Assembly: GCA_051047955.1 (NCBI GenBank)
Contig: JBPGPT010000003.1
Location: forward strand, 186,001 to 250,000
Reading direction: 5' to 3'
Length of the DNA stretch: 64,000 nt
Source of the DNA: Cystobasidiomycetes sp. EMM_F5
Taxonomy: Eukaryota
The position numbers and the translations under genes were made by a program. A model generated the notes under the pieces. It was not told the origin of the DNA, did no database searches, and was given only the letters and a program-made list of their open reading frames with translations. Of the stretch, positions 51,049 through 64,000 are shown in pieces (positions within the stretch are counted from its first letter, which is position 1; each line of letters starts with the position of its first letter).

Positions 51049-54000
51049 TCACATCCGGGTTGCGGCAGACTTCCTGTATATTCTTTCCCGCCGTCGTAGC
51101 CTAGCGATCGCCTCTGTCGTAAGTGGATAGTCTGCGCGGAGCCTTTCGATCGCATCGGATACGCGGAGCACCCGTTCCGAAATCTGCAAACGCTCTGCTT
51201 CGTCGTCTGTCGCAAAATCTTGATTGGCGAGCTGTACCTGCTCCTCAAACGCCGTGGCCAGCGCAACCAGTGTAGCCTTTGTGGGCCTCCACTGTTTCGC
51301 TCGAGCCTCGTCTTTGACGCGATTATAGTTGTGCGTAATGAGGGAGACGGCGTCGGCGTCGGCTGTTGCCGCTGGCATGCCCCGAGATTGTGTATCAGCA
51401 GAGGTAGAGCGCTGCACGACTATGCCGTCGTTCACGGCACCGTTCGCAGCATCCTCGGCGACTATGTAGCCGCTGTCGTCATGCTGTTGGGAAGAGCCCA
51501 CGAAACGGATTTTGTCGAACAAGCCTGGGAGGCTGCTGTGATGGAAGATTGTTTTCTCGGTGACATGTAGATGACTTGCACGATTGGGCGGCCTCATAGG
51601 CGTCTCCGTTCTTGTATCCAACAGTTCGTAATCTATGTGAGACGGCCCTTCTGTCTCGAAGAGCGTCTTCGCGTCTGCCACCATTGGGTTCCGCCGCTCA
51701 GAAGCAAGGGTACTGAGTAGCCGCTTTTGCGGCTGCAGTAGAACTTGCTCGACTACGTAAAGTGCTCGATCAAGGCGTCCAGCTTTGATCAAAGCAACTG
51801 CGAGATGATTCCAATTACCGCTATCGAAACCAAAGCCATCTTCTTGTGCTTGAGCCCAGACGCCTGCAATCTCATCGTGAAGACCATGGTCGGACAGAGC
51901 AACAATGTAGACCGACAAGGGTAGACATATGATGTTGCTCCGCCTAGACGACGGAGTCGCAGGTGATTCAGGCAGACTTGTAGAGGAAATCGCGAAATCA
52001 TACAAGACCTTCCAGATCTCTCTGGCACCCTCTAGGTCCCCAGCACGCCTGTACGCATCTAGAAGTGCTGTGTACGTTGGCATCGATGGCTTTACGCTGC
52101 TTTGCGCCATAGTGCGCTTGAAAGCAGTCAATGCATTGGCAGGATTACGGCCAGATAGAACGCGAGTTAGATCGTCCGCTGCAACTGTTCCGTCGGCAGA
52201 ATCGCTGACGCGCGGAGTCTGATTTCCAGAGTCAACGGCCCGGGCGTAGGCATCGATGAGCGGTCCAAACACGCTATGTACAGCTGTCCCGCTCGCGACA
52301 GTCTTATCGTGCCTGTACAATCGGGTTCTGCCAAAATCAGCCGCATCTTTCGCTTGTGCCTGGTAGTTACGTAGGAATTCTTCGACAAGCTCTTCAGCTA
52401 TTGCTCTTGTGGCGGGATCATTGATGTCCTTCGAATACGCCTTTACCAGTATCGACCAGGTCGCGGAGGAGGGCTCAATTCCTCGGCGTATCATTTCGGT
52501 GAAGTATTCTCTGGCCGCTGGCTCGTTCCCGTGTCGTAGAAGTCCTCGGATCAAAATGGTAAATGCGTAAACGTTGGCTGGAGTGTTGAAATGGGGATCT
52601 GGTATCGCTTCCGCGTTGGCATCCATTTTAGCAAAAGTCTCTTCTGCAAAGTCCATATCGCCAGCATCACAAGCAGACTGCAAGAGTATGTTGAAAGTTC
52701 TACTTGTCGGAGTGAGATGGCGCTCGACCATGGTTGTATAGATCCCTAGCACGGCCGAGAGAGGTGCGCTATTCAGCACGTACGCCTTCATAAGAACAGT
52801 GAATGTTGCGACATCGGGCTGCAGCGGATGCCCAGGAGGGTGAGTCTCCAGATACTCGAAGAGTGACACTGCTTGTTCAAATTGGCCGTCCTCAGTGTAT
52901 GCATTCATCAGAGAAGTATAGATTTGTAGATTGACGTCTACACCAGCTTTCAACATATCATCAACGACTCTTTGAGCGGCTTGAGCATCCCTGCGATTGC
53001 CATGTAGATTCACAAGGGCGTGATATGTGAAGCGACTTGGTGTATGCTGCGCTCGCTGCAGGCGGTCTACTGTAGCGTATGCTTTGCCGGCATTGATATG
53101 TAGTGCGTATATCTTGACGAGTACATTGTAAATAGATAGCGGCACTCGTGGCCAGCGGCTGTCGAGTTCGGCTTTCTTCTCCCAGGCGCTGATTAGAGCT
53201 TCCATACCCGCAGCGTCTGCTACTGCGATGTGGCGCCGTCCAAGAAAACTTGCCAGCTTTGACAGAGAATATCGCCCATCTAAATGAATTGGTGGCCCTT
53301 CAAGCGATTTCAAGAAATCTGCAAAGTCGAGGGTGGGTTTTCGCAGACGTTCACCTCTTTCGACTCTTAGTCGTATGGCGTCACAGAAGTGTGCTATGCG
53401 ACGCGCAAATCTTCGGTTGCTCTCATTAGGAGCCACAGGATTGTCTGTAGAGACATTCTGGGACAAGCTTGATGCCTCTTTGCCGAAAGGTCTTTGATAT
53501 GGAACAGGATCGTAGAGGTGGCCATCGGGCGGCTCTGGGAGATCGACTATTGTAGACGCATCTATTTGCCGAATCGTGGTTGTAGAGAATGCTGCCGATG
53601 GTCTCCGTCGTCTATCTCTTCCATGGCTAGATAATCTGTCCAATGGAAGCGATCTGCGCTTATCCAAGATAGATTCCGATACGTTGCGTTGGGACTCGGA
53701 ACTCGATACACTCGGAGGCAGTTGCGCGTTCTGAAATGTCGTGCTCAAGAGCGCTTGCCTGTGTAACCGTTGTTGACGAGTTGGAGACTTCGGCTGTCTC
53801 CATGTCGGTGTAGACTCGACTGTCGCCGGCTGGAAGTAGCGAGTGAAGGAAGGATAAAAGTAGAAGCTTCCCAGGATATCCTGCGTTGCAGAGTCTGGCA
53901 AATGGATAGCATTTTGCAGAGTCGATGCGTGGCGACTACTTTTTTGCAGCAGCAAAGCACCGCACGCACATCGCGGTCGCCGACTTGATTGCACAAGAGA

Positions 54001-54093
54001 TGTGCCTTGTTGAGATAGCAGCCGAGAAGTGGACGCAGAGCTGCTTGCGATGCTGGCCAATGCAGATGACGCCGAATGCTGCAGCCTGTTCAT
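51049..54093 (-). CDS. Mitochondrial pentatricopeptide-repeat protein (1014 aa, apparently intronless)
   Basis: Tandem PPR motifs 'YNVLVKIY', 'TYHALVNLH', 'YTSLMNAY', 'TFTVLMKAY', 'TFNILLQ', 'FTILIRG', 'YTALLDAY'. Confidence 0.9.
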   Translation of the reverse strand: MNRLQHSASSALASIASSSASTSRLLSQQGTSLVQSSRRPRCACGALLLQKSSRHASTLQNAIHLPDSATQDILGSFYFYPSFTRYFQPATVESTPTWRQPKSPTRQQRLHRQALLSTTFQNAQLPPSVSSSESQRNVSESILDKRRSLPLDRLSSHGRDRRRRPSAAFSTTTIRQIDASTIVDLPEPPDGHLYDPVPYQRPFGKEASSLSQNVSTDNPVAPNESNRRFARRIAHFCDAIRLRVERGERLRKPTLDFADFLKSLEGPPIHLDGRYSLSKLASFLGRRHIAVADAAGMEALISAWEKKAELDSRWPRVPLSIYNVLVKIYALHINAGKAYATVDRLQRAQHTPSRFTYHALVNLHGNRRDAQAAQRVVDDMLKAGVDVNLQIYTSLMNAYTEDGQFEQAVSLFEYLETHPPGHPLQPDVATFTVLMKAYVLNSAPLSAVLGIYTTMVERHLTPTSRTFNILLQSACDAGDMDFAEETFAKMDANAEAIPDPHFNTPANVYAFTILIRGLLRHGNEPAAREYFTEMIRRGIEPSSATWSILVKAYSKDINDPATRAIAEELVEEFLRNYQAQAKDAADFGRTRLYRHDKTVASGTAVHSVFGPLIDAYARAVDSGNQTPRVSDSADGTVAADDLTRVLSGRNPANALTAFKRTMAQSSVKPSMPTYTALLDAYRRAGDLEGAREIWKVLYDFAISSTSLPESPATPSSRRSNIICLPLSVYIVALSDHGLHDEIAGVWAQAQEDGFGFDSGNWNHLAVALIKAGRLDRALYVVEQVLLQPQKRLLSTLASERRNPMVADAKTLFETEGPSHIDYELLDTRTETPMRPPNRASHLHVTEKTIFHHSSLPGLFDKIRFVGSSQQHDDSGYIVAEDAANGAVNDGIVVQRSTSADTQSRGMPAATADADAVSLITHNYNRVKDEARAKQWRPTKATLVALATAFEEQVQLANQDFATDDEAERLQISERVLRVSDAIERLRADYPLTTEAIARLRRRERIYRKSAATRM

Positions 54094-54325
54094 GAATCCA
54101 GCTTCCTTCCTGTACGACGAGAAGTCAGAGTTGTGTTCGAAGTGCCGTCCCTGTAAGCCATAGCCAGCTTACCTCAGCCCACAGGTATTTCAGCGGTGAC
54201 CATGCATGTTTGGTTTGGTGAAAAGCCGTCGAGATCATCCAAAACCCTACAAACGACCAAATCGGTGGTTTTGGTTTTCAACGACATTCGCTTCAAATCG
54301 TGACATACCTGCTGCTCACGTCTGG

Positions 54326-56251
54326 ATGCAGCTATGCAGCTGTCCATGCATCAGCTCTCGCTGGTCGACCCGTGCTCTTCATGGCTTCCGTGACGTACTG
54401 GCATCATCGAAGCTCGGTTTCGCAGACGCAAGATGGATATCTACGATACAACGTGTTAGGCGGCAGGGAGCAAATGCCATTGAGACGACAAAGCCATCCA
54501 CAAATTCCGCGGCGTCATCACTTCATGGCCGCTCGTTTCGACTGGCAGTCATTGGTGCCGGACCTGCGGGCTTTTACGCTACTTCCAGGGTATTGGGACT
54601 GGCAGAGTCAGACAACGCCAGGGTGGACATGTACGAAGAACTTCCTGTCCCGTTTGGACTCGTGAGATATGGTGTAGCACCGGATCATCCAGAAGTCAAA
54701 GTCAGTGGAGAAATGGTCATGCCCTGCTTTGAGAGTCTCGAAAAACTTCCTTCTGAGACTTGCTTGTTACCACTCGCGTGAGGATAGAACTGCATACATA
54801 AGTTCGAAGATACAGCCCAGGACGCCAGGTTTCGTTATTTCGGGAATGTTCAGGTCGGTGGACCAGCTCAGAAAGCTGAAGAAGCGACATCGCAGTTTCA
54901 AGCTCCGAGTCCAGACCATCGTCCAACTCGCCATGCTCTGTCAATCCCAACCTCCTTTCTTCGACCCTACTATGACGCTATTCTGCTGACGTACGGTGCC
55001 TCTCTCGACCGCTCGCTGGGTCCATCCGTCCAAAACGACAATGCTAATCTAGAGAATGTCATGTCGGCACGGTCCTTCGTACACTGGTACAATGGGCATC
55101 CACATTCACCGATTCATCGTAGTGCGGGCAACTTCGATCTGTCACATCTTCAGCATGCCAGCATCATTGGGCAAGGTAACGTCGCGTTAGACTGCGCTCG
55201 CATCTTGCTCAGTGGGGCCGGGAAGGATACAAGCAACCATTTGCAAAAGACCGACCTCCCGCAGAGTGTTCTCGAATCATTATCGCAGAGCGGTATCAGA
55301 AAAGTCGACATTGTGGGGCGACGAGGTCCGCTGCAGTTTGCCGGAACTACCAAAGAGCTTCGTGAACTGGTCACGTTGGCTTCTGAGGGACAAGACTTTA
55401 CTATGACCCCGGACGACATGCAGCTTGTCGAACAGGGTTTGGCAGAAATGGAACAATTTCAGTCTCGGGGTGGACAGATGGACAACATGCGCATGAAGAA
55501 GCGTCTGCTAGGTCTAATGCAGAAGGCAAGTACTGACACTTCCAATAAAGATACTGCAAAAGGCTGGTCTTTGAGCTTCTGCAAATCGCCCATCGCACTC
55601 TACGGCAGCGAAGGTGCCGATCACGGCCCCGTCAAACGCATCGACTACGAACTGAACGACCTCTCTCCTGCCTCGACGTCAACACTGCACTCTGGAGACG
55701 ATGTAGTAGACCCCTCGCTCTCCCTTGCTCGTGGAACAGGCAGAACAATCACACAAGCAACCGACTTGGTCTTGAAGAGCGTTGGATACCGGTCTATTGG
55801 CATTCAGGATATACCCTTCGACGCACGCAAAGGCGTTGTGACGAATAATGAAGGGAGAGTCCTCGATAAGGATGGTTCTATGGTGCGTTATAGATAAATT
55901 GATCGCTCTTACATTGACCAATTCTAACTGGTCTCCACCTTGTAGATCCCTGGATTGTATGTTTCGGGATGGCTAGCGAGAGGGCCGAACGGAGTCATTG
56001 CAACGACAATGTACAATGCGTTTGACGTGGCCGCCAATATAGTCGACGACTTTATTGCACGGACTCCGCAAGATGCAGCTCAGCGCCCTCCCTTACCAGA
56101 CTTGTGCACGCAAGGCTTCGGTGATCAGCGGATCGTGTCATGGCAAGATTGGCAGGCTATCGATGCGGCTGAGCGAGCCAGGGGCGCGAAGCTTGGCAAG
56201 GAGCGCGAGAAGTTTGTTCGTGTCGACGACATGCTTGCGGTGCTCGGCTGA
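54326..56251 (+). CDS. ARH1: NADPH:adrenodoxin (ferredoxin) oxidoreductase
   Basis: 'VIGAGPAGFY', 'PFGLVRYGVAPDHPEVK', 'IGQGNVALD', 'VGRRGP', 'SVGY', 'YVSGWLARGPNGVIATTM', 'GKEREK'. Confidence 0.95.
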
Positions 56252-56761
56252 GAAGCACGGTGGAAGTGGTAGCGTGAGGCAAGAATCGCACGTTTAGTAC
56301 TGTCTGGCGCAAGTCTTGCTTGCACGACTTTGGTGGCTCGACGGAACACTACTGGACACATCCCGGCCGATAGGAGTAGATTCGCACGAATTATTTCTGT
56401 TAATGGCGAACAGTAGTGTCACTTGCTGCAGCCGGCATACTCTCGAGCAACAAGAAGACTCCCGCACAGCTTGGCTCCACTTGCCGTGGCTTGCTTCTAC
56501 ATACGCCGACTCGTTTGAGAGCACGCACTCGGCTGCACGTCACCGGTTTCGTCACGATGTCAACAATCATCCTCGAGGCACAGGCCAGGCTGATAAATCC
56601 AGCGAAGGCAGCGCCATCTCCGGCTTCTCTAGCATTTGCTGTGCAGGTTGGACATGTCAAAGCCTGAACACAGTTACAACCGTAATCTTTGTTCGTATAA
56701 CGGTTAGTATTTCCGCTTGTCATTTGGCAGCAATGCTATGACTGCGCAAACCGCGGGAGAT
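55984..56761 (+). repeat. Left arm of 778-bp inverted repeat (ARH1 3' end, spacer, tRNA 5' part)
   Basis: Reverse complement of 62080-62857; about 34 substitutions and no indels by manual alignment. Confidence 0.97.
56686..56761 (+). pseudogene. Truncated tRNA-Asp(GTC) lacking the T-arm and 3' acceptor strand
   Basis: Identical to the first 76 nt of the tRNA at 62155-62055, then diverges after '...CGCGGGAGAT'. Confidence 0.88.
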
Positions 56762-56904
56762 GTCGCTGCATGTCACGATTCCAAGCGAAATTTTGCTAAT
56801 ACATTGCACTGAGACTTGTGTACGACAACAGGTACCTGCATTAGTACTTCAGAAACTACCTTGTACCACATGACCACGAAACAGTGAAAAGTCTTATCTT
56901 GTCC

Positions 56905-59900
56905 TCAGCGTCCGGACCATTGCCCTGCCAAAGCAGCGACCCTCCCGCTTCCCTGTACTGGACGGGTTGGCCTTTCTAACAGCGCCTTACGCTGCTCAAT
57001 CTCCTTGCTGTGCGACGTGACCGTTCAATTGCCTCAGCCAGTCATAGCATACACGAGTTAAGTCTATCTGGCTTACGAGAGAGCTTCCTGAATGGAATTA
57101 CTGCGTTTATGGCCATTCAAGGCTGGTGATAATGCTGGCGATGTCGCCTGCTCAGAGGGTGTTACAACAGGCCTTGGAGTCTCCAGCGCTTCAGACGACA
57201 TAGGCGTAGCCTCAGCATTGCCAGGCATTGGGTACATCGGCACCTCGTGAGTGTTCCTACGCATCTCGTGCATCGCAGGAAACGGTGATGAGGCCGAGCT
57301 CTCAGCAATTCTGTCGTCAGCAGGCTGGAGGCGAGCTTCATGCGTTGGGACATGGTCGTCGTGACTAACATCGTCAATGATGCCATCGTAAGGATCGCCC
57401 GAGCTGACTGTACTGTAGCGAGTGGAATTGTTCGGCAGCTCATCTCGCGAAGCGACTTCTGCCTTTTGCGAAGGCGGTTCAGAAGGATGCACGGATGTGA
57501 CTGGAGACGCGGGCATAGATTTGTTTATGGGTGTAGGAGGGAGCGACCGGTCAAGAGCCTGAGCTGGATTGGAGTTTCCTCGGATGTCCGACGAATTCGA
57601 TGCTTCCTGAGCATCTGGATTGCCATGCCCCTGTGTGACATAAGTATCGATAGTACCAGCGAAAGATGGCGCGCGAGGAGTGCTCTGCACAGATTGATGG
57701 GTGGCAAGGTCAGAAAATTCATCGCCTCCATTTTCTCAACACCTACTTGTGGCGGCCGCAAGGACGGCGATGTCGAGGTGAATTGGGCACTTTGCACGGA
57801 TGGCGATAGTGGCGGCCTGATATTTTCAACTGTATCTGCCGTTGGCTGGGTATATTCGCGTCGTCGTCGCGTTCCCTGCCTCATCATGTCAAAAAACGCA
57901 GCTGGGCCCTTGGACGATCTGGGAAGTAGCGAGTTTCGGGTAGTCTTGTGTCCTTCGCGACTCGGGGGTCTTTGATCGCTATGGTTATTCGTAGAGATAC
58001 TGACATATGATCCGTTATCAAGCTCGCCAGGTCCTGATTGAAGGGTTTCGCTGTCCTCCTCCAGCACAGGCGAATGTTGCATGAGGGAAATTTTTTGAGT
58101 TGCACCGCGCTTTGAGAAGACCGAGACGTCGGGATATCGTAAATTAGGAGAGTTGCTGCGCGAGTCGGGCTTAGAATCGAATTTAGTCGACGAGTTGCCT
58201 AGGCCTGCTTGTGCCGAAGTCGGCATTGGCGGCTGCTTTGATTTCTTCCGCACCGACCGCAAGAAGGAAATGCGCCTTGAAGATTTCGGCTTCTGCACAG
58301 CTGATTGTAAAAGTGCAACTTTATACTCAGGTGGAATAGCTTCTTCTACCAGAAACCAAGTATCTTCTGTCCGGTCGTCAACGCCCGGCTGATGCTCGCG
58401 GTCATCAGGTCTGGTCTTGAGCTGTATCAGTGACCAATTTGACTCTTTTACTTCATCTCGTGTCCATCCTGAAGCACACAGGACATCTGCATACACTTCG
58501 AAAAATAGCTTGTCGACCTGTACTGCGCGATCCTCGCTTGGCGTAATGTCGTAATTGAATGGTGGGAGGGCCTTCTCGAGTTTCTTGGCTCTGCTTGCAA
58601 GGAGTTCCCGGTGTTTGGCGGACGAAACGTCATTGGCAGATGTCATCCCGTTTTCCGCAGGATCCAGTAGCAACTCCATCTGCAGCGCGCTCTCCTCCGA
58701 TGTAAATCCAGCGCCTTCGAAGGTAGACCAGTCCATGGTCTTATACTTTCTTCTCCGATTCGCGCGTTCAGTCTCAGTGAGGTCGAACCTTAGCTTGGAC
58801 TCATCGGGAGGAGCGAACCCAGAGTCCATAAAAGATCTCCACTGTTTGTCCACAACACTCTTGAACGTCTGGAGGTCATCAACCGGATCCTCTACACCCG
58901 TGGATCGAATGTTCAGCAAATGGCGGTACCGAGTCGAATATTGAAATGGCGGCGGTTTATTGCTCAACCCGGCATCGCTATAATCAGGGTATGGTGCGAT
59001 CCTTGCCCAGTTGGCAGAGCGTGGCACGTTCCAATTGCTGCCCGATCAGCATTAGCCTAAGCAGTCGACATACCCATGTACAGCAGACTTACCCGGCGGT
59101 TTCGATCAAGTCTTTGGAGTAGAAGCGGACATTTCGCTTAATACGGTATACTTGTAACAACTCTGCACCTAGTGGAGGCTTGTTGACGTTTATTGGCAGT
59201 TGCATGGCGTAATTTTGGACAAGCTCCTGCAGGCGAAGAGGAATGGAAGGTGGAGCTCCTATTCCAGGCTGGATCTGTGTTTGATCGCGGACGTAAGCCA
59301 GTATGAGATGCTCAGTAGCATGAGTGAATCGATTATAGGCAGTGTATGTTTGCTCGAAAGTCTTGTCGTCGGGAAGGCCAAAGATAAAACTGCCGAAGAT
59401 CGAAGCAAGCTTCCGAGCTGTGCAGCCATTTTTTGTCCGGTAAGCAACAGCAGTCGTTAGCAGCGAAAGTATCGTTTCTAAGAGGGTTGCGCTGTGCGTC
59501 GGCAGCAGATACAGCATATGCGTGGTGATGTATCGGGGTGGAAAGTCCCGCTCGCGTTCGCCAAACCGCCAGCGTTCATACATATCCCAACCAATTATGC
59601 CTCGCTGACCTTGTGGGTTCTGGTAACGACCAAGTGCCCATTTGATCATACCTGCGAGATCATGGGGACTTGCAAACTTGATATCTAGGCCAAATATGTG
59701 GTTTTAAGTGAGAACTGAATCGACAGAAGTGCATGCATTCATCTACCTTGAGTCCATGTGCTTCCCAATGTGTAGGCTCTGATGAGTGAAGAAACGCCTT
59801 CTACAGAGATATCGAGAGCCTGCGACCGACATGGCGCATATCAATCTTCAGTCCATAGACGTGATACATCGCATGTGGATGCATACCTGAGTAGAAAACA

Positions 59901-60586
59901 ACAGCGGTTCCGTCATGCCTGACGTTATCGTCCAAGTAGTTAGCATATAGCTCTATGCCATGCAAGACTGACTCACCTCTCATCTTGATCTCCTGACCAC
60001 ACAGCCTGACGATGTCTTCGATCTGTTCAAGCGTCAGGTCGCGCTGCGTTTCGATGGGCCAATAGCCATAGCACAGCTACCGAGGGCATACGTCAGGCGT
60101 TTGTCTTTGGGCTTCGGCCTGAAGAAGGGATCTCACTTGGAGTTCTTCATTGACATTGTCCTTGATGAGCAGCTCGCTCAGCGAAGGGATACTGCCAGTG
60201 CTCATCCGCCGTAAGCCTTTCTTTTCCATTGATGTCGGTGGTGCCGAGCGGCCTGAGAATGCAGAGTATTGCCGTGACCGACCATCAGAGAGAAAGGTGG
60301 GCATAGTATGCGAGTCTGTGCGAGAATTGCCGTTGCGCTTCTCCCCGAACTCGCTTGTGCTTGCTGCGGTGGCGGCGCTGCCAACCTGGTCTTGGGCGAA
60401 CATTTGCGGAACATGGGAGGTAGCTGACTGGTTCGGCTGTGATGTGTGACTGTTGTAAGTCGGAGGTGATATAGCTTGATGTGATTGTTTCGCCTTGAAG
60501 GAAAGGGGTAGTGATGTCGACGCTTTTGATTGAGACGGAGGGGCGCTCTCGCCTTTGCGACGCTTGCCGAAGAGAGACAGGTTCAT
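56905..60586 (-). CDS. RhoGAP-like Msb1/Mug8 (DUF1708)-type protein
   Basis: 'LCGQEIKMR', 'IKWAL', 'WDMYERWRFGERERDFPP', 'NGCTARKLASIFG', 'ATEHLILAYVR', 'WRSFMDSGF'. Confidence 0.75.
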
Positions 60587-60861
60587 AGTGGCAGACGTGA
60601 GGGTCTGTCTAAATATGGGCTACAAGTATATCACGGCGTTGGGGACATTCGCACGTCTTGTCGCCGCATGAACGGACCCTCGCAACCGGGACTGGGACGA
60701 GGCTTAGCTGGATGGAGGCAGAGGACTTAAATGGAGTGTGCAGTCAGCTCTCGGGTCTACAGAGCTATGCATGCATGGTCGTGGAAATCGCAGCAGATCA
60801 TTCTTGTTGGAATGACGAAAACGTGACTTGCGCTCAGGTCAACTTGAGCAAGGGTGAACAT

Positions 60862-61851
60862 ATGCAGGCGGGCGGCAGCGAGAATGACGACGACGACTTC
60901 GGCTTGGGGGACGTCTTTCCTGTGAGCGCTGGTACTTGTTTTGCGATAGACCTCAAGCCCATCTCTGTTGATGCAGGAACAAATTCGGCCACCTTCGCCG
61001 CCAAATGATGTCTCATACTATACGCGCCCGGACGGAGCTCGTCTAGCCATTCGTTTGGTCAACAAGCATCCTCTATGGGTGCGTTGATACTTTTAATGCG
61101 TGGAAGCCATGTTGACTTATGGGTCACCAACCAGGGTCATGTGCTGTATCCTACTTCAAAATGTCTCGCAACTTTTCTGGCAGACAATGCAAAAGAGTAC
61201 ATCGAGGGGAAGCGTGTTCTCGAGCTTGGTGCTGGCGGTGGGCTTCCCAGTCTGATTAGTGCGCTGGAGGGATCGAAAAAGGTACGTCTGGCAGTCTGCG
61301 TCCATATAGCCAGTATTGATAATACTCTACACACAGACTATAGTCACAGACTTTCCGGATCCAGACCTAATACGGAATATCAAGCACAACATTGAGACAA
61401 ACATACCTCTACATCTGCCGTCAAAGATTGTTGCGGAGGGATACACCTGGGGCACGAAAACGGACAACCTGATAGCGCTCAACAATGGACAGCCTTTCGA
61501 TACAATCTTGGCAGCCGATCTCGTTTTCAGTGAGCATCTGAGGGTTTGCGATAGGACATCGGTGCTGATTTCAATCAAGACCATTCGCAGCATTCCGCGC
61601 TACTCAAGACGTGCCAATTGGCTTTGGCTGGGTCTACTTCACCCGCAGTCCTCTTGTTCTACTCGCATCATCGACCGACAACGGAGCTCATTGCTAAAGA
61701 TCGGGCATTCGTTGCGTTGGCGGAGCAGGAAGGCTGGACTGCTGTCAAAGTTCTCGAAGACATCAACGCAGGACCCGCATTCCCGGAAGATGGCGGTGAT
61801 TTGGCAATTAGAAGCACAGTACACGGGTTCCGATTGCAACCACCGCAGTGA
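60862..61851 (+). CDS. Protein N-/lysine methyltransferase, Nnt1/Efm7-like (Methyltransf_16)
   Basis: 'LVNKHPLW/GHVLY', 'VLELGAGGGLPS', 'TDFPDPDLIRN', 'GYTWG', 'FDTILAADLVF', 'YSHHRP'. Confidence 0.88.
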
Positions 61852-62054
61852 TTAGAGGCCCATGCGCATAACCACAACGAGTCTTCGGGCGAAGCCCGCT
61901 CTCAACGCAGCGCTCTCATCGGCACTAGAGAGTGTGCTGAGATATCGAAGGCGGCCGACACTGACGCAACGTGCTGCATGTTAACCACTAGCGAGTCGTT
62001 CAGCAAGCAGGAGTCCGGTCTCCCGACACAACTGTCGGGAGAAGAAGCAAAAAT

Positions 62055-62155
62055 CTCTTTGTCTGGGAATCGAACCCAGATCTCCCGCGGTTTGCGCAGT
62101 CATAGCATTGCTGCCAAATGACAAGCGGAAATACTAACCGTTATACGAACAAAGA
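62055..62155 (-). tRNA. tRNA-Asp(GTC) with a 29-nt intron at position 37/38
   Basis: Acceptor TCTTTGT/ACAAAGA plus G73; D-arm GTAT-AACGGTTA-GTAT; anticodon arm TCCGC-TTGTCA^C-GCGGG; T-arm CTGGG-TTCGATT-CCCAG; followed by a T5 Pol III terminator. Confidence 0.93.
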
Positions 62156-62857
62156 TTACGGTTGTAACTGTGTTCAGGCTTTGACATATCCAACCTGCAC
62201 AGCAAATGCTAGAGAAGCCGGAGATGGCGCTGCCTTCGCTGGATTTATCAGCCTGGCCTGTGCCTCGAGGATGATTGTTGACATCGTGACGAAACCGGTG
62301 ACGTGCAGCCGAGTGCGTGCTCTCAAACGAGTCGGCGTATTTAGAAGCAAGCCACGGCAAGTGGAGCCAAGCTGTGCGGGAGTCTTTTTGCTGCTTGAGG
62401 GTATGCCCGCTGCAGCGAGTGACGCTACTATTCGCCAGTAACAGAGATGGATCGTGCGAATCTACTGCTATCGCCCGAGATGTGTCCTGTAGTGTTCCGT
62501 CGAGCCACCAAAGTCGTGCAAGCAAGACTTGCGCCACGGGGTCCTAACCGGGCGATTATTGCCTCACGATACCACTTCCACCGTGCTTCTCAGCCGAGCA
62601 CCGCAAGCATGTCGTCGACACGAACAAACTTCTCGCGCTCCTTGCCAAGCTTCGCGCCCCTGGCTCGCTCAGCCGCATCGATAGCCTGCCAATCTTGCCA
62701 TGACACGATCCGCTGATCACCGAAGCCTTGTGTGCATAAGTCTGGTAAGGGAGGGCGCTGAGCTGCATCTTGCGGAGTCCGTACAATAAAGTCGTCGACT
62801 ATATTGGCGGCCACGTCAAATGCATTGTACATTGTGGTTGCAGTGACTCCGTTCGGC
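62080..62857 (-). repeat. Right arm of the 778-bp inverted repeat
   Basis: Reverse complement of 55984-56761. Confidence 0.97.
62590..62857 (-). pseudogene. Duplicated 3' fragment of ARH1 (last ~88 codons)
   Basis: 'PNGVTATTMYNAF...VDDMLAVLG*'; 4 synonymous and 2 nonsynonymous differences from ARH1; no 5' portion. Confidence 0.9.
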
Positions 62858-62866
62858 GTTTTTGCT

Positions 62867-63076
62867 AGGCTTCGAGATGTACGAGTATGCGCAGGCTGAC
62901 GCATCGCAAATACCGAAATACATGTTGGTGGAGTCACGCATCTTCGGCCAGCAGAAGTCGCGGTGAAAGATTTCGAGGATTTTGGCGTGGCCCCAACGAG
63001 CTACTTCGATGGAGACGCGTGCCAATTCCAAGATAGCAACCTTGATAGAAATGAAATTTCGGAACAGGACAAGTCC
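62867..63076 (-). mobile_element. Degenerate Ty3/gypsy pol remnant (integrase H2C2 zinc-binding region); may extend to ~63350
   Basis: One frame reads 'GLVLFRNFISIKVAILELARVSIEVARWGHAKILEIFHRDFCWPKMRDSTNMYFGICDASACAYSYISKP', matching the gypsy pattern GLL..R..IL..AHD...GH.G..KTLE...R.F.WP.MR....Y...CD.C......KP. Confidence 0.72.
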
Positions 63077-63372
63077 GGCTTGGGGTACTTGTGTTGGTTG
63101 AGAGCGTCGTGACGGTAGTCATCGTCGGCAACAGCATTTGCGGCAAATGCTGCGATAATTCTTCAAGTGGCAGCGTCACAGCTCAGGCAAGAAGTCATCG
63201 TCAAGCGGACTCGTCGGGAATATTCGAGGCTTTCAAGCGGTCGGAGGGGGGAATTTGATAATTGGAGAAAACGCCAGAAGCACGAAAAGGGCCGGCAGCC
63301 ACCATGACACGTTCATGAAATGTTGATAAATTTCCCATCCTTTCTGTAAATTGAGCGGTGCTTGAACCTGCT

Positions 63373-64000
63373 TCATTGACTGCTCGGAACCTGACACAGC
63401 GCTCGTATTCCGGCCAATGTCGTGGGGAGCCGAGCCAATCCTTCTGCGACTTCTTCACGCCAGCTTGTGAGTCTCTCAGCTTCGTCACGCGTTGCCCATG
63501 TCCGGGTGCGCTCTTGATCCTCAGGCCATTTGTCCTCCAGCTTGTCAACCAAAACGAGCTTGCGTGTCATCTCACATTAGATCCTAGACAGATCCATATA
63601 TAAATGAGGTACTGACTGTGAAATGATATATTGCCCGGGGCACCTCCTCAGCGCTGCGTCCTGCCTTGGCCGAACGCCTATCTGGAACTGGCTCTCCAAG
63701 CGATACGACCGCGCGACCGCGAAAGCCAGCTAAAGAGCAAAGGCCAGACGATATCTTCAGCACCTCAAATAGCCTTGGCACGTTAGCTGACGCCTCACCT
63801 TCTTCCTGTAGGGTTGGCGACATTCTTAGTGATCGCCGACAGACATTTCCACACACCAAATCTACTCACCCAACCTTCGCGCAAGGCGGCCTCCTCCGCA
63901 GTCTCCCCCTTCTCTATCCCACCTTTTGGTAGCACATACCGATCTGCGTGCTTACGCGATGAGCACAGCAGAAATAGTGGCTGCTCGTTCGTAACAAGAT
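63373..64000 (-). CDS. Nudix hydrolase, diphosphoinositol-polyphosphate phosphohydrolase type (Ddp1/Aps1-like); 5' part lies outside the window
   Basis: 'SSRKHADRYVLPKGGIEKGETAEEAALREGW/EE/AGF' is a complete Nudix box after splicing; 'WPEDQERTRTW'. Confidence 0.88.

What the first reader, a model, noticed from the sequence alone, without database searches (positions are those of the whole stretch)
55984..62857. Inverted-repeat-flanked 5.3-kb segment whose arms hold complementary broken copies of ARH1 and tRNA-Asp: an inversion scar or a possible flip-flop cassette
Seen in sequence: 55984-56761 and 62080-62857 are 778-bp reverse complements flanking the Msb1/Mug8-like and Efm7-like genes. The left arm continues outward into the full ARH1 but its tRNA is cut inward. 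The right arm has only the ARH1 tail, while its tRNA is completed by sequence inside the segment. Established knowledge: staggered-break inversions leave inverted duplications at their breakpoints, and inverted repeats containing gene ends support flip-flop inversion at the mating-type loci of methylotrophic yeasts. Inference: the ancestral order was ARH1, tRNA-Asp, Efm7-like, Msb1-like. A crossover anywhere in the arms would flip the segment and still leave one complete ARH1 and one complete tRNA, so both orientations should be viable. No recombinase is visible in the window.
Basis: partly seen in the sequence, partly recalled or inferred. Interest (0 to 1): 0.85.

Follow-up and report, generated by a model that had tools for sequence, protein, structure and literature searches.

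The report
Inversion scar with duplicated breakpoint sequence
A 5.3-kb piece of a yeast chromosome was turned around in the past, leaving a 778-base copy of the broken spot at each end so that neither gene at the break was lost; this is a tidy example of a known process, and nothing shows that it works as a switch.

Summary
55984-56761 and 62080-62857 are gapless reverse complements (744 of 778 bases identical) and the only repeat of 40 nt or more in the window. The outer edge lies in the last exon of ARH1. The inner edge lies at base 76 of a 101-nt intron-bearing tRNA-Asp(GTC). This complementary truncation requires an ARH1-tRNA-Asp contiguity later split by an inversion. It matches the staggered-break inversions with inverted breakpoint duplications described in Drosophila. 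The segment holds an Msb1/Mug8-domain gene and a Methyltransf_16 (Efm7-type) gene. I found no mating-type, recombinase or transposase domain. The arms carry only gene 3' ends and a tRNA 5' part, so a flip would change no gene or promoter. The differences are strongly mosaic: 6 in 288, 26 in 183 and 2 in 307 bases. This suggests the arms have exchanged sequence since the duplication, so occasional re-inversion is possible. Nothing supports a regulated flip-flop. Orientation polymorphism and outgroup gene order could not be tested: no reads, own genome or close relative were available. The assembly is short-read only.

The parts
54206..56251 (+). ARH1 (adrenodoxin/ferredoxin-NADP+ reductase), complete, several exons. 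The last intron is 55883-55945 and the last exon 55946-56251 (stop 56249-56251).
   Evidence: ORFs. The middle exon 55052-55882 hits adrenodoxin reductase 1cjc_A at 1.5e-28 and FprA 1lqt at 1.2e-24. NAD_binding_8 matches weakly on exon 1. Splice sites were read by eye.
55984..56761 (+). Left arm of the inverted repeat: ARH1 last 89 codons, the 3' flank, about 230 bp upstream of the tRNA, and the first 76 nt of tRNA-Asp.
56686..56761 (+). Truncated tRNA-Asp copy: 5' exon, 29-nt intron and 10 nt of the 3' exon. It lacks the T arm (B box) and the 3' acceptor strand. It has 0 differences from the right copy.
   Evidence: Coordinates mapped. No Rfam tRNA match at E<=10. 0 of 76 positions differ.
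56776..56797 (+). Possible degenerate remnant of the tRNA T loop, 3' end and T-run terminator, just past the left arm. Uncertain.
   Evidence: A gapped local alignment to the sequence past the right arm's inner edge scores 11.5. 4 of 3000 random 40-mer pairs reach that score, 25 of 3000 at 60 nt and 109 of 3000 at 100 nt. 24 of 500 shuffles of 139-nt flanks reach it. The window length was chosen after seeing the match.
57073..60586 (-). Msb1/Mug8-domain gene (multi-exon), with its 3' end towards the left arm.
   Evidence: Msb1-Mug8_dom at 6.9e-17 on ORF 59089-59703. The flanking ORFs are on the same strand. The gene ends are approximate.
60712..61851 (+). Methyltransf_16-family lysine methyltransferase (Efm7/Nnt1-type), with its 3' end towards the right arm. 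The start is approximate.
   Evidence: PF10294 at 6.2e-06 (26.5 bits, cut-off 21) on 61310-61855 and at 0.006 on 61009-61395. Orthology to Efm7 specifically was not tested.
62055..62155 (-). Complete tRNA-Asp(GTC) with a 29-nt intron after position 37. A T5 run follows its 3' end.
   Evidence: aragorn -i. Rfam RF00005 at 43.5 bits, model positions 1-71 of 71. The T-run was read.
62080..62857 (-). Right arm of the inverted repeat.
62590..62857 (-). Orphan copy of the ARH1 last 89 codons. It is in frame with the same stop codon and differs from the true tail by 4 synonymous and 2 non-synonymous changes. The deposited annotation makes it exon 2 of a 99-aa 'NADPH-adrenodoxin reductase'.
   Evidence: P0001 is encoded letter for letter by minus-strand exons 63823-63799 and 62864-62590.
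63373..64000 (-). NUDIX hydrolase gene, 3' part. This is the right flank, convergent with the inferred ancestral position of the Msb1-like gene.
   Evidence: PF00293 at 1.4e-08, 35.3 bits, on 63870-63998. The stop codon was read by eye.

Best explanation
This is the footprint of one past chromosomal inversion. Inferred ancestral order: ARH1(+), tRNA-Asp(+), Efm7-type methyltransferase(-), Msb1-like(+), NUDIX(-). One break was staggered by about 780 nt, with one cut in the last exon of ARH1 and the other in or just after the tRNA-Asp gene. The second break fell between the 3' ends of the Msb1-like and NUDIX genes. Fill-in and end joining inverted the tRNA-to-Msb1 block and left the 778-nt interval at both ends in inverted orientation. 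As a result ARH1 stayed whole on the left and the tRNA stayed whole on the right. The extra ARH1 tail and extra tRNA 5' part are dead leftovers. Later the two arms exchanged sequence non-reciprocally (gene conversion). The ARH1 tail and the tRNA-proximal 307 bp were kept nearly identical while the 183 bp between them diverged to 14%. Today the structure is most likely a fixed, functionless scar that flips rarely if at all. Shown: the repeat, its edges, the complementary truncation, the gene content and the mosaic identity. Inferred: the ancestral order, the staggered-break mechanism, the gene conversion and the fixity.
For: The repeat and its sharp edges are, and it is the only repeat of 40 nt or more in the window. 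Complementary truncation holds. The whole ARH1 is on the left only. The whole tRNA is on the right only. The left copy is not recognised as a tRNA. No second duplication occurs at the other breakpoint: the best local alignment scores 7 against a shuffle mean of 7.9. That fits Ranz et al., where 12 inversions had duplication from only one breakpoint region and 6 from both; median duplication was 321 bp, the largest about 1.9 kb, and mean copy identity 88% (PMC1885836, passages). [quoted passage not shown] 2009, PMC2675101, passages). Mosaic identity: 6 of 288, 26 of 183 and 2 of 307 positions differ, chi-square 56, p=6e-13, and 0 of 5000 permutations reach 26 differences in a 183-bp window. Constraint on one copy alone could at most halve divergence, yet the outer and inner blocks are about 6 and 20 times less diverged than the middle. 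The contig runs through both arms of a short-read SPAdes assembly (PMC12697161, whole text). Yeasts with active flip/flop regions often have assemblies broken there (Krassowski et al. 2019, PMC6692504, passages).
Against: No outgroup order is available, so the ancestral ARH1-tRNA-Asp-methyltransferase contiguity is inferred from this one sequence. No reads could be laid, so neither the orientation nor its uniformity in the culture is verified. The assembly is Illumina 2x151 only. Phasing across identical runs of 161, 152 and 108 bp rests on read pairs, and short-read assemblers can collapse isolated differences between repeat copies. Part of the mosaic could therefore be artefact. The same mosaic that I read as gene conversion also means the arms can pair, which argues against strict fixity. 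An inverted segmental duplication followed by one homologous flip gives the identical end product.
Confidence: 0.65

Rival explanations
1. This is a recurrently toggling inversion without a dedicated recombinase. Ordinary homologous recombination between the arms re-inverts the 5.3-kb segment from time to time, so both orientations exist among strains. The S. cerevisiae chromosome XIV flip/flop region works this way, with its arms kept similar by gene conversion.
For: The mosaic identity implies exchange between the arms. The inner 307 bp has only 2 differences, with perfect runs of 152 and 108 bp, which may be enough for occasional crossover. Both orientations keep one whole ARH1 and one whole tRNA. 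The precedent is Salzberg et al. 2022 (PMC9731477; abstract and section 10 read). There the 4-kb inverted repeats are continually homogenised, also hold a tRNA gene, and orientation is stable on laboratory timescales.
Against: The arms are short (778 bp) and 4.4% diverged overall, with a 14% diverged core. From recall, such mismatch levels strongly depress mitotic crossover in yeast. Only one genome is available. The contig is unbroken through both arms. Part of the apparent homogenisation could come from the short-read assembly.
Confidence: 0.15
2. The inverted copy arose first as an inverted segmental duplication of the ARH1-tail-to-tRNA interval, inserted between the Msb1-like and NUDIX genes. 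The segment was then flipped once (or an odd number of times) by homologous recombination between the copies.
For: It yields exactly the observed structure. It is compatible with the evidence that the arms interact.
Against: It needs two events where one suffices. No insertion signature or second duplication is seen at the junctions. Nothing in the sequence separates it from the one-step model.
Confidence: 0.1
3. The structure is an assembly artefact. The middle segment is mis-oriented, or the second arm belongs elsewhere in the genome.
For: The assembly is short-read only (SPAdes, 2x151; PMC12697161). Identical runs of 161 and 152 bp exceed the read length. No reads could be examined.
Against: Both arms have their own 34 diagnostic bases and four distinct junction sequences, all of which must exist in reads to be assembled. 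The first or last arm-specific base lies 14 nt from the outer edge and 108 nt from the inner edge, within one read. A heterozygous simple inversion cannot create the 56761/56762 junction. The repeat lies well apart from itself (5.3 kb between arms), unlike fold-back contig-end artefacts.
Confidence: 0.05
4. This is a regulated flip-flop cassette, a genetic switch whose two orientations give different phenotypes, as at the MAT loci of methylotrophic yeasts.
For: Only the geometry supports it: inverted repeats containing gene ends around an invertible block.
Against: The segment holds an Msb1/Mug8-domain gene and a Methyltransf_16 gene, not cell-type genes. No recombinase was found. No AT-rich or repeat-rich region that could be a silencing centromere or telomere lies within the window: GC is 0.49-0.54 throughout and there is no other repeat. 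The arms hold only 3' ends and a tRNA 5' part, so a flip changes no coding sequence or promoter junction. The arms are 95.6% identical rather than near-identical.
Confidence: 0.02

Closest known systems
Inversions with inverted duplications of unique sequence at their breakpoints (staggered-break model; Drosophila melanogaster group, Ranz et al. 2007, PMC1885836)
   Same: A non-repetitive, partly genic interval is present once at each end of the inverted block in opposite orientation. [quoted passage not shown] The size (778 bp) lies within the reported range (46 bp to about 1.9 kb). One copy of each gene piece is a dead fragment.
   Different: This is a basidiomycete yeast, not an insect. Both cuts of the staggered break fall inside genes (an essential-type reductase and a tRNA). 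The copies show mosaic identity suggesting later conversion. No outgroup confirms the polarity here.
S. cerevisiae chromosome XIV 24-kb flip/flop region (Salzberg et al. 2022, PMC9731477)
   Same: A chromosomal block of ordinary genes is bounded by inverted repeats that include a tRNA gene. No dedicated recombinase is involved. The arms are homogenised by gene conversion. It is not a mating-type switch.
   Different: There the repeats are 4 kb, almost identical, made of whole functional sporulation genes, and both orientations are documented in many strains and species. Here the arms are 778 bp, 95.6% identical, made of gene fragments, and only one orientation has been seen in one genome.
Flip/flop mating-type switching in Ogataea, Komagataella and Ascoidea (Krassowski et al. 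2019, PMC6692504; Maekawa and Kaneko 2014, PMC4238957)
   Same: Inverted repeats that contain part of a flanking gene (part of SLA2 in Ogataea) bound an invertible chromosomal block.
   Different: [quoted passage not shown] None of that is present in this window. The organism is a basidiomycete, whose mating-type genes are of other kinds.
tRNA genes as evolutionary breakpoints in yeasts (Gordon et al. 2009, PMC2675101)
   Same: A rearrangement end point coincides with a tRNA gene. Fork stalling at highly transcribed tRNA genes is a plausible cause of the break.
   Different: Here the break is inside or at the very end of the tRNA gene itself rather than in the intergenic region beside it. It is not explained by recombination between two tRNA copies or Ty elements.

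Membership tests
Staggered-break inversion with inverted breakpoint duplication | The same otherwise single-copy, non-repetitive sequence lies at both ends of a block in inverted orientation. | tested here: met
   778 nt, 95.6% identical, gapless. It is the only repeat of 40 nt or more in the window. Copy number in the rest of the genome is not testable.
Staggered-break inversion with inverted breakpoint duplication | Each copy keeps contiguity with a different one of the two ancestral neighbours (complementary truncation). | tested here: met
   ARH1 is whole only at the left arm. tRNA-Asp is whole only at the right arm.
Staggered-break inversion with inverted breakpoint duplication | An outgroup shows the un-inverted order with one copy. 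| not testable with these tools
   No own genome is held. The metagenome scan gave only distant ARH1 loci: the two loci matched across the exon are 29-36% identical, the other two match only short segments, and none has a tRNA. The genome note says there is no sister-taxon genome.
Staggered-break inversion with inverted breakpoint duplication | No transposon or dispersed repeat at the breakpoints. | tested here: met
   There is no other repeat. 0 of 70 scanned ORFs hit a transposase or integrase family. ORFs under 150 aa outside 54-64 kb were not scanned.
Flip/flop mating-type switch (methylotrophic yeasts) | Cell-type (MAT) genes inside or at the ends of the invertible block. | tested here: not met
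   The block holds Msb1-Mug8_dom and Methyltransf_16 genes only.
Flip/flop mating-type switch (methylotrophic yeasts) | One end lies beside a silencing centromere or telomere. | tested here: inconclusive
   There is none within the window (GC is flat; no repeats). Only 1.1 kb is visible to the right of the right arm.
Flip/flop mating-type switch (methylotrophic yeasts) | Both orientations occur in clonal cultures or among isolates. | not testable with these tools
   No sequencing run was listed.
Recurrent NAHR inversion polymorphism (chrXIV flip/flop type) | Arms homogenised by gene conversion. | tested here: inconclusive
   There is a strong mosaic of 2.1%, 14% and 0.65% divergence. However, there is a single genome, a short-read assembly and no outgroup to show concerted evolution.
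Recurrent NAHR inversion polymorphism (chrXIV flip/flop type) | Both orientations present among strains or species. | not testable with these tools
Site-specific recombinase invertible element (Hin/Gin/FLP type) | A recombinase gene in or beside the element. | tested here: not met
   0 of 70 ORFs.

The most novel reading that the evidence does not exclude
The 5.3-kb block is a naturally toggling, recombinase-free invertible segment in a basidiomycete yeast. It was created by a staggered-break inversion whose duplicated gene ends make both orientations viable. It is kept flip-competent by arm-to-arm gene conversion. That would make it a second, independent and much smaller counterpart of the Saccharomyces chromosome XIV flip/flop region, caught at a stage where its origin is still readable.
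Probability: 0.15. Interest if true: 0.5.

Novelty: new member of a known kind. Interest (0 to 1): 0.3.

Why it matters
It is a clean fungal example of a mechanism documented mainly in flies. A staggered break leaves an inverted duplication, and here that duplication visibly rescued two genes (ARH1 and a tRNA) that a blunt inversion would have destroyed. It shows how breakpoint duplications let inversions with breaks inside genes survive selection. It also shows how such an inversion creates the inverted repeats that could later allow re-inversion. There are practical points too. The orphan ARH1 tail has been annotated as a 99-aa 'reductase' gene, which is almost certainly a model artefact. 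The intron-bearing tRNA is missed by default tRNA scans. As a switch or new system it has little standing.

Tried and rejected
1. Own genome: none is held. Copy number elsewhere and distance to contig ends, centromere or telomere therefore could not be checked.
3. Metagenome scan with the ARH1 middle exon: 4 loci. The two matched across the exon are 29-36% identical; the other two match only short segments. aragorn finds 0 tRNAs in all 4. They are useless for synteny.
4. Protein search with the junction-spanning ORF 62593-63000(-): 8 hits. Only P0001 carries the right-arm variant, and it is this genome's own annotation. The next hit is 58% identical. No second genome with the junction was found.
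5. Earlier findings of this scan, searched by place, words and sequence: nothing.
6. A second inverted duplication at the other breakpoint: none beyond chance.
7. Extension of the outer edge beyond 55968: none (243 of 500 shuffles reach the score). The 16-nt zone 55968-55983 is not significant in longer windows.
8. A structured RNA in the near-identical inner part: Rfam finds nothing but the tRNA. The ilvH match at E=3.3 is chance.
9. Mobile element with long terminal inverted repeats: rejected, because the arms are made of a host exon and a host tRNA and no transposase was found.
10. A heterozygous simple inversion merged by the assembler: rejected, because it cannot produce the 56761/56762 junction.
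11. Literature: a search for staggered-break inverted duplications in fungi listed mainly fly papers, plus a few from human, fish and plants, and none on a fungus. The basidiomycete/tRNA/inversion search listed mostly mitochondrial and plastid papers. I found no described fungal nuclear case in these two searches, which does not prove there is none.
Full report
THE OBSERVATION. The repeat finder on 54000-64000 returns a single inverted pair, 55968-56761 and 62080-62873: 794 nt, 95% complementary, 5318 nt apart. A base-by-base comparison gives 34 mismatches in the 778 gapless positions 55984-56761 vs 62857-62080, which is 95.6% identity. Beyond the inner edge the match collapses at once: 29 of 39 positions differ at 56762-56800. 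Beyond 55968 it does the same: 22 of 28 differ at 55940-55967. The 16 nt in between match at 10 of 16. Over the whole 64-kb window this is the only direct or inverted repeat of 40 nt or more. So the repeat is real and is not a member of a dispersed family within the window.

WHAT THE ARMS CONTAIN. The left arm starts 38 nt into the last exon of a multi-exon gene. The middle exon of that gene matches bovine adrenodoxin reductase (1cjc_A, 1.5e-28) and M. tuberculosis FprA. The last exon is 55946-56251. After the stop codon come about 430 nt of flank and then the first 76 nt of a tRNA.

The tRNA is invisible to default tools. ARAGORN finds 0 genes and Rfam at gathering threshold on the whole window finds 0 matches. 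aragorn with introns allowed finds tRNA-Asp(gtc) at c[62055,62155] with a 29-nt intron after position 37. Rfam with permissive filters scores it 43.5 bits, full length.

The repeat edge falls between the variable loop and the T stem. The T arm (the B box of the internal Pol III promoter, from established knowledge), the 3' acceptor strand and the T-run terminator therefore exist only at the right copy, inside the segment. The left copy (56686-56761) gets no tRNA match even at E<=10. Conversely, the right arm carries only the last 89 codons of ARH1, still open and ending at the same TGA.

A possible refinement concerns the 36 nt past the left arm. They align, with two indels, to the T loop, 3' end and terminator of the real tRNA: 4 of 3000 random 40-mer pairs reach the score, 25 of 3000 at 60 nt and 109 of 3000 at 100 nt. 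24 of 500 shuffles of 139-nt flanks reach it. I chose the window length after seeing the match, so this is only a hint. If real, it means the original duplication covered the whole tRNA and the present sharp edge is secondary.

SURROUNDINGS. Between the arms lie two genes. One is an Msb1/Mug8-domain gene on the minus strand (Pfam 6.9e-17). The other is a Methyltransf_16 gene on the plus strand (26.5 bits, cut-off 21), the family that holds Efm7/Nnt1. They diverge from a shared upstream region, and each points its 3' end at an arm. To the right lies the 3' part of a NUDIX gene on the minus strand.

I scanned 16 ORFs of the 54-64 kb region and 54 further ORFs against Pfam. The 54 comprise all 52 stop-to-stop ORFs of 150 aa or more from 1-54 kb and 2 shorter ORFs near the right end. 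The hits are housekeeping families: EXS, ChAPs, PPR, PP2C, Ric8, PROPPIN, Exo5, a CAAX protease and others. 0 of 70 hit a recombinase, transposase, integrase, homeodomain, HMG or pheromone-receptor family. GC content is 0.49-0.54 in every 2-kb bin.

A protein search with the ORF spanning the right outer junction returned P0001. This is a 99-aa NCBI protein named 'NADPH-adrenodoxin reductase [Cystobasidiomycetes sp. EMM_F5]'. The window encodes it letter for letter from minus-strand exons 63823-63799 and 62864-62590. The genome note for that isolate (PMC12697161, whole text) reports Illumina 2x151 reads only, a SPAdes assembly, 18.6 Mb in 253 contigs, and no sister taxon with a genome.

HOW IT MOST LIKELY AROSE. 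A sequence that is joined to the body of ARH1 at one copy and to the 3' part of the tRNA at the other must once have been a single interval joined to both. The ancestral order was therefore ARH1(+), tRNA-Asp(+), methyltransferase(-), Msb1-like(+), NUDIX(-), and the block has since been inverted.

[quoted passage not shown] That is what the staggered-break model of Ranz et al. predicts. In their data 17 of 29 Drosophila inversions carry such inverted duplications of unique sequence. The median size is 321 bp and the maximum about 1.9 kb. In 12 inversions only one breakpoint region is duplicated, against 6 with both (PMC1885836, passages).

I found no second duplication at the other breakpoint. 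The duplication is what allowed an inversion with cuts inside ARH1 and inside or at the end of a tRNA gene to survive. tRNA genes are over-represented about threefold at yeast evolutionary breakpoints, plausibly because replication forks stall there (PMC2675101, passages). A replication-based template switch could give the same product, and I cannot separate the two mechanisms. Nor can I separate the one-step model from an inverted segmental duplication followed by one homologous flip.

THE MOSAIC. The 34 differences are very unevenly spread.
- Outer block, 55984-56271 (ARH1 tail): 6 in 288 positions. These are 4 synonymous and 2 non-synonymous changes, 5 transitions and 1 transversion.
- Middle block, 56272-56454: 26 in 183 positions, 13 transitions and 13 transversions.
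- Inner block, 56455-56761: 2 in 307 positions, and 0 of 76 in the tRNA part.
The chi-square is 56 (p=6e-13), and 0 of 5000 permutations reach 26 differences in any 183-bp window.

Constraint cannot explain this. In each block at most one copy is functional, which could at best halve the divergence, not cut it 6- to 20-fold. At one of the two non-synonymous sites, homologues P0002 and P0003 keep the left-arm residue, so that change at least is on the orphan copy.

The simplest reading is non-reciprocal exchange between the arms after the duplication, either conversion of the flanks or replacement of the core. There is a caveat. The assembly is short-read only, and such assemblers can collapse isolated differences between repeat copies, although eight isolated differences did survive here. 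Salzberg et al. raised the same caution for their inverted repeats (PMC9731477, section 10).

IS IT A SWITCH? The arms hold only gene 3' ends and a tRNA upstream region and 5' part. A crossover anywhere in them rejoins equivalent sequences, so no coding sequence, promoter or terminator changes partner. Only the orientation of two housekeeping genes and the side on which the live tRNA sits would change.

Known flip/flop switches work by moving MAT genes next to a centromere or telomere (PMC6692504, passages). No such genes or regions are in the window, though only 1.1 kb is visible to the right. Many Ogataea flip/flop species have assemblies broken at the MAT locus, and most genomes in that study were SPAdes assemblies. 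Here the contig runs through. I therefore put a regulated cassette at about 2%.

Rare, unregulated re-inversion, as in the Saccharomyces chromosome XIV flip/flop region (PMC9731477, abstract and section 10), stays open at about 15%. The arms evidently can pair. But they are short, with perfect runs of at most 161 bp and a 14% diverged core.

WHAT COULD NOT BE DONE. No own genome is held. No sequencing run was listed. The metagenome scan gave only distant ARH1 loci. Earlier notes of this scan hold nothing. The two decisive tests therefore remain open: orientation in reads or strains, and gene order in relatives. Supplements of the cited papers were not consulted and bear little on the claims made here.

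VERDICT. The inversion-scar reading is well supported by anatomy alone, with confidence about 0.65 for a fixed scar with later gene conversion. The flip-flop reading is unsupported. It is a new member of a known kind and is of modest interest.

Noticed in passing
window 63823-63799 and 62864-62590 (-): The deposited annotation has a 99-aa 'NADPH-adrenodoxin reductase' (P0001). Its first exon starts inside the NUDIX gene region and its second exon is the orphan ARH1 tail of the right arm. This is almost certainly a homology-driven gene-model artefact, not a second reductase.
   Followed up: partly
window 63870 to 63729 (-): Read by eye, the NUDIX gene seems to need a 7-nt micro-exon (63805-63799, GAAGAAG) between introns 63869-63806 and 63798-63730. 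That would keep the frame and supply the two glutamates after '...REGW' of the Nudix box (box consensus recalled). No tool or RNA data tested this.
   Followed up: no
window 62055-62155 (-): The only tRNA in the 64-kb window carries a 29-nt intron. Default ARAGORN and Rfam at gathering threshold on the whole window both miss it. It is found by aragorn -i and by Rfam on a short stretch. tRNA counts for this genome from default scans may be too low.
   Followed up: yes
window 56790-56797, 62860-62867 (+) and 62046-62053 (-): By eye, the 8-mer TTTTGCTA lies on the + strand about 29 nt past the left arm's inner edge and again 2 nt past the right arm's outer edge. The closely similar TTTTTGCT follows the tRNA's 3' end on the minus strand. 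This could be chance, a terminator-like motif, or microhomology used at the junctions. It was not tested statistically.
   Followed up: no
window 55020-55051 (+): By eye, a short ARH1 intron (GT...CTAAT...TAG) is in frame and free of stops. It therefore reads through in the 369-aa stop-to-stop ORF. The ORF translation is not the true protein there.
   Followed up: no
window 56290-56304 and 56390-56395: Differences between the arms cluster tightly: 7 of 15 and 4 of 6 adjacent positions. Yet there is no indel anywhere in the 778 nt. That is an unusual pattern for 14% diverged non-coding DNA and is unexplained.
   Followed up: partly
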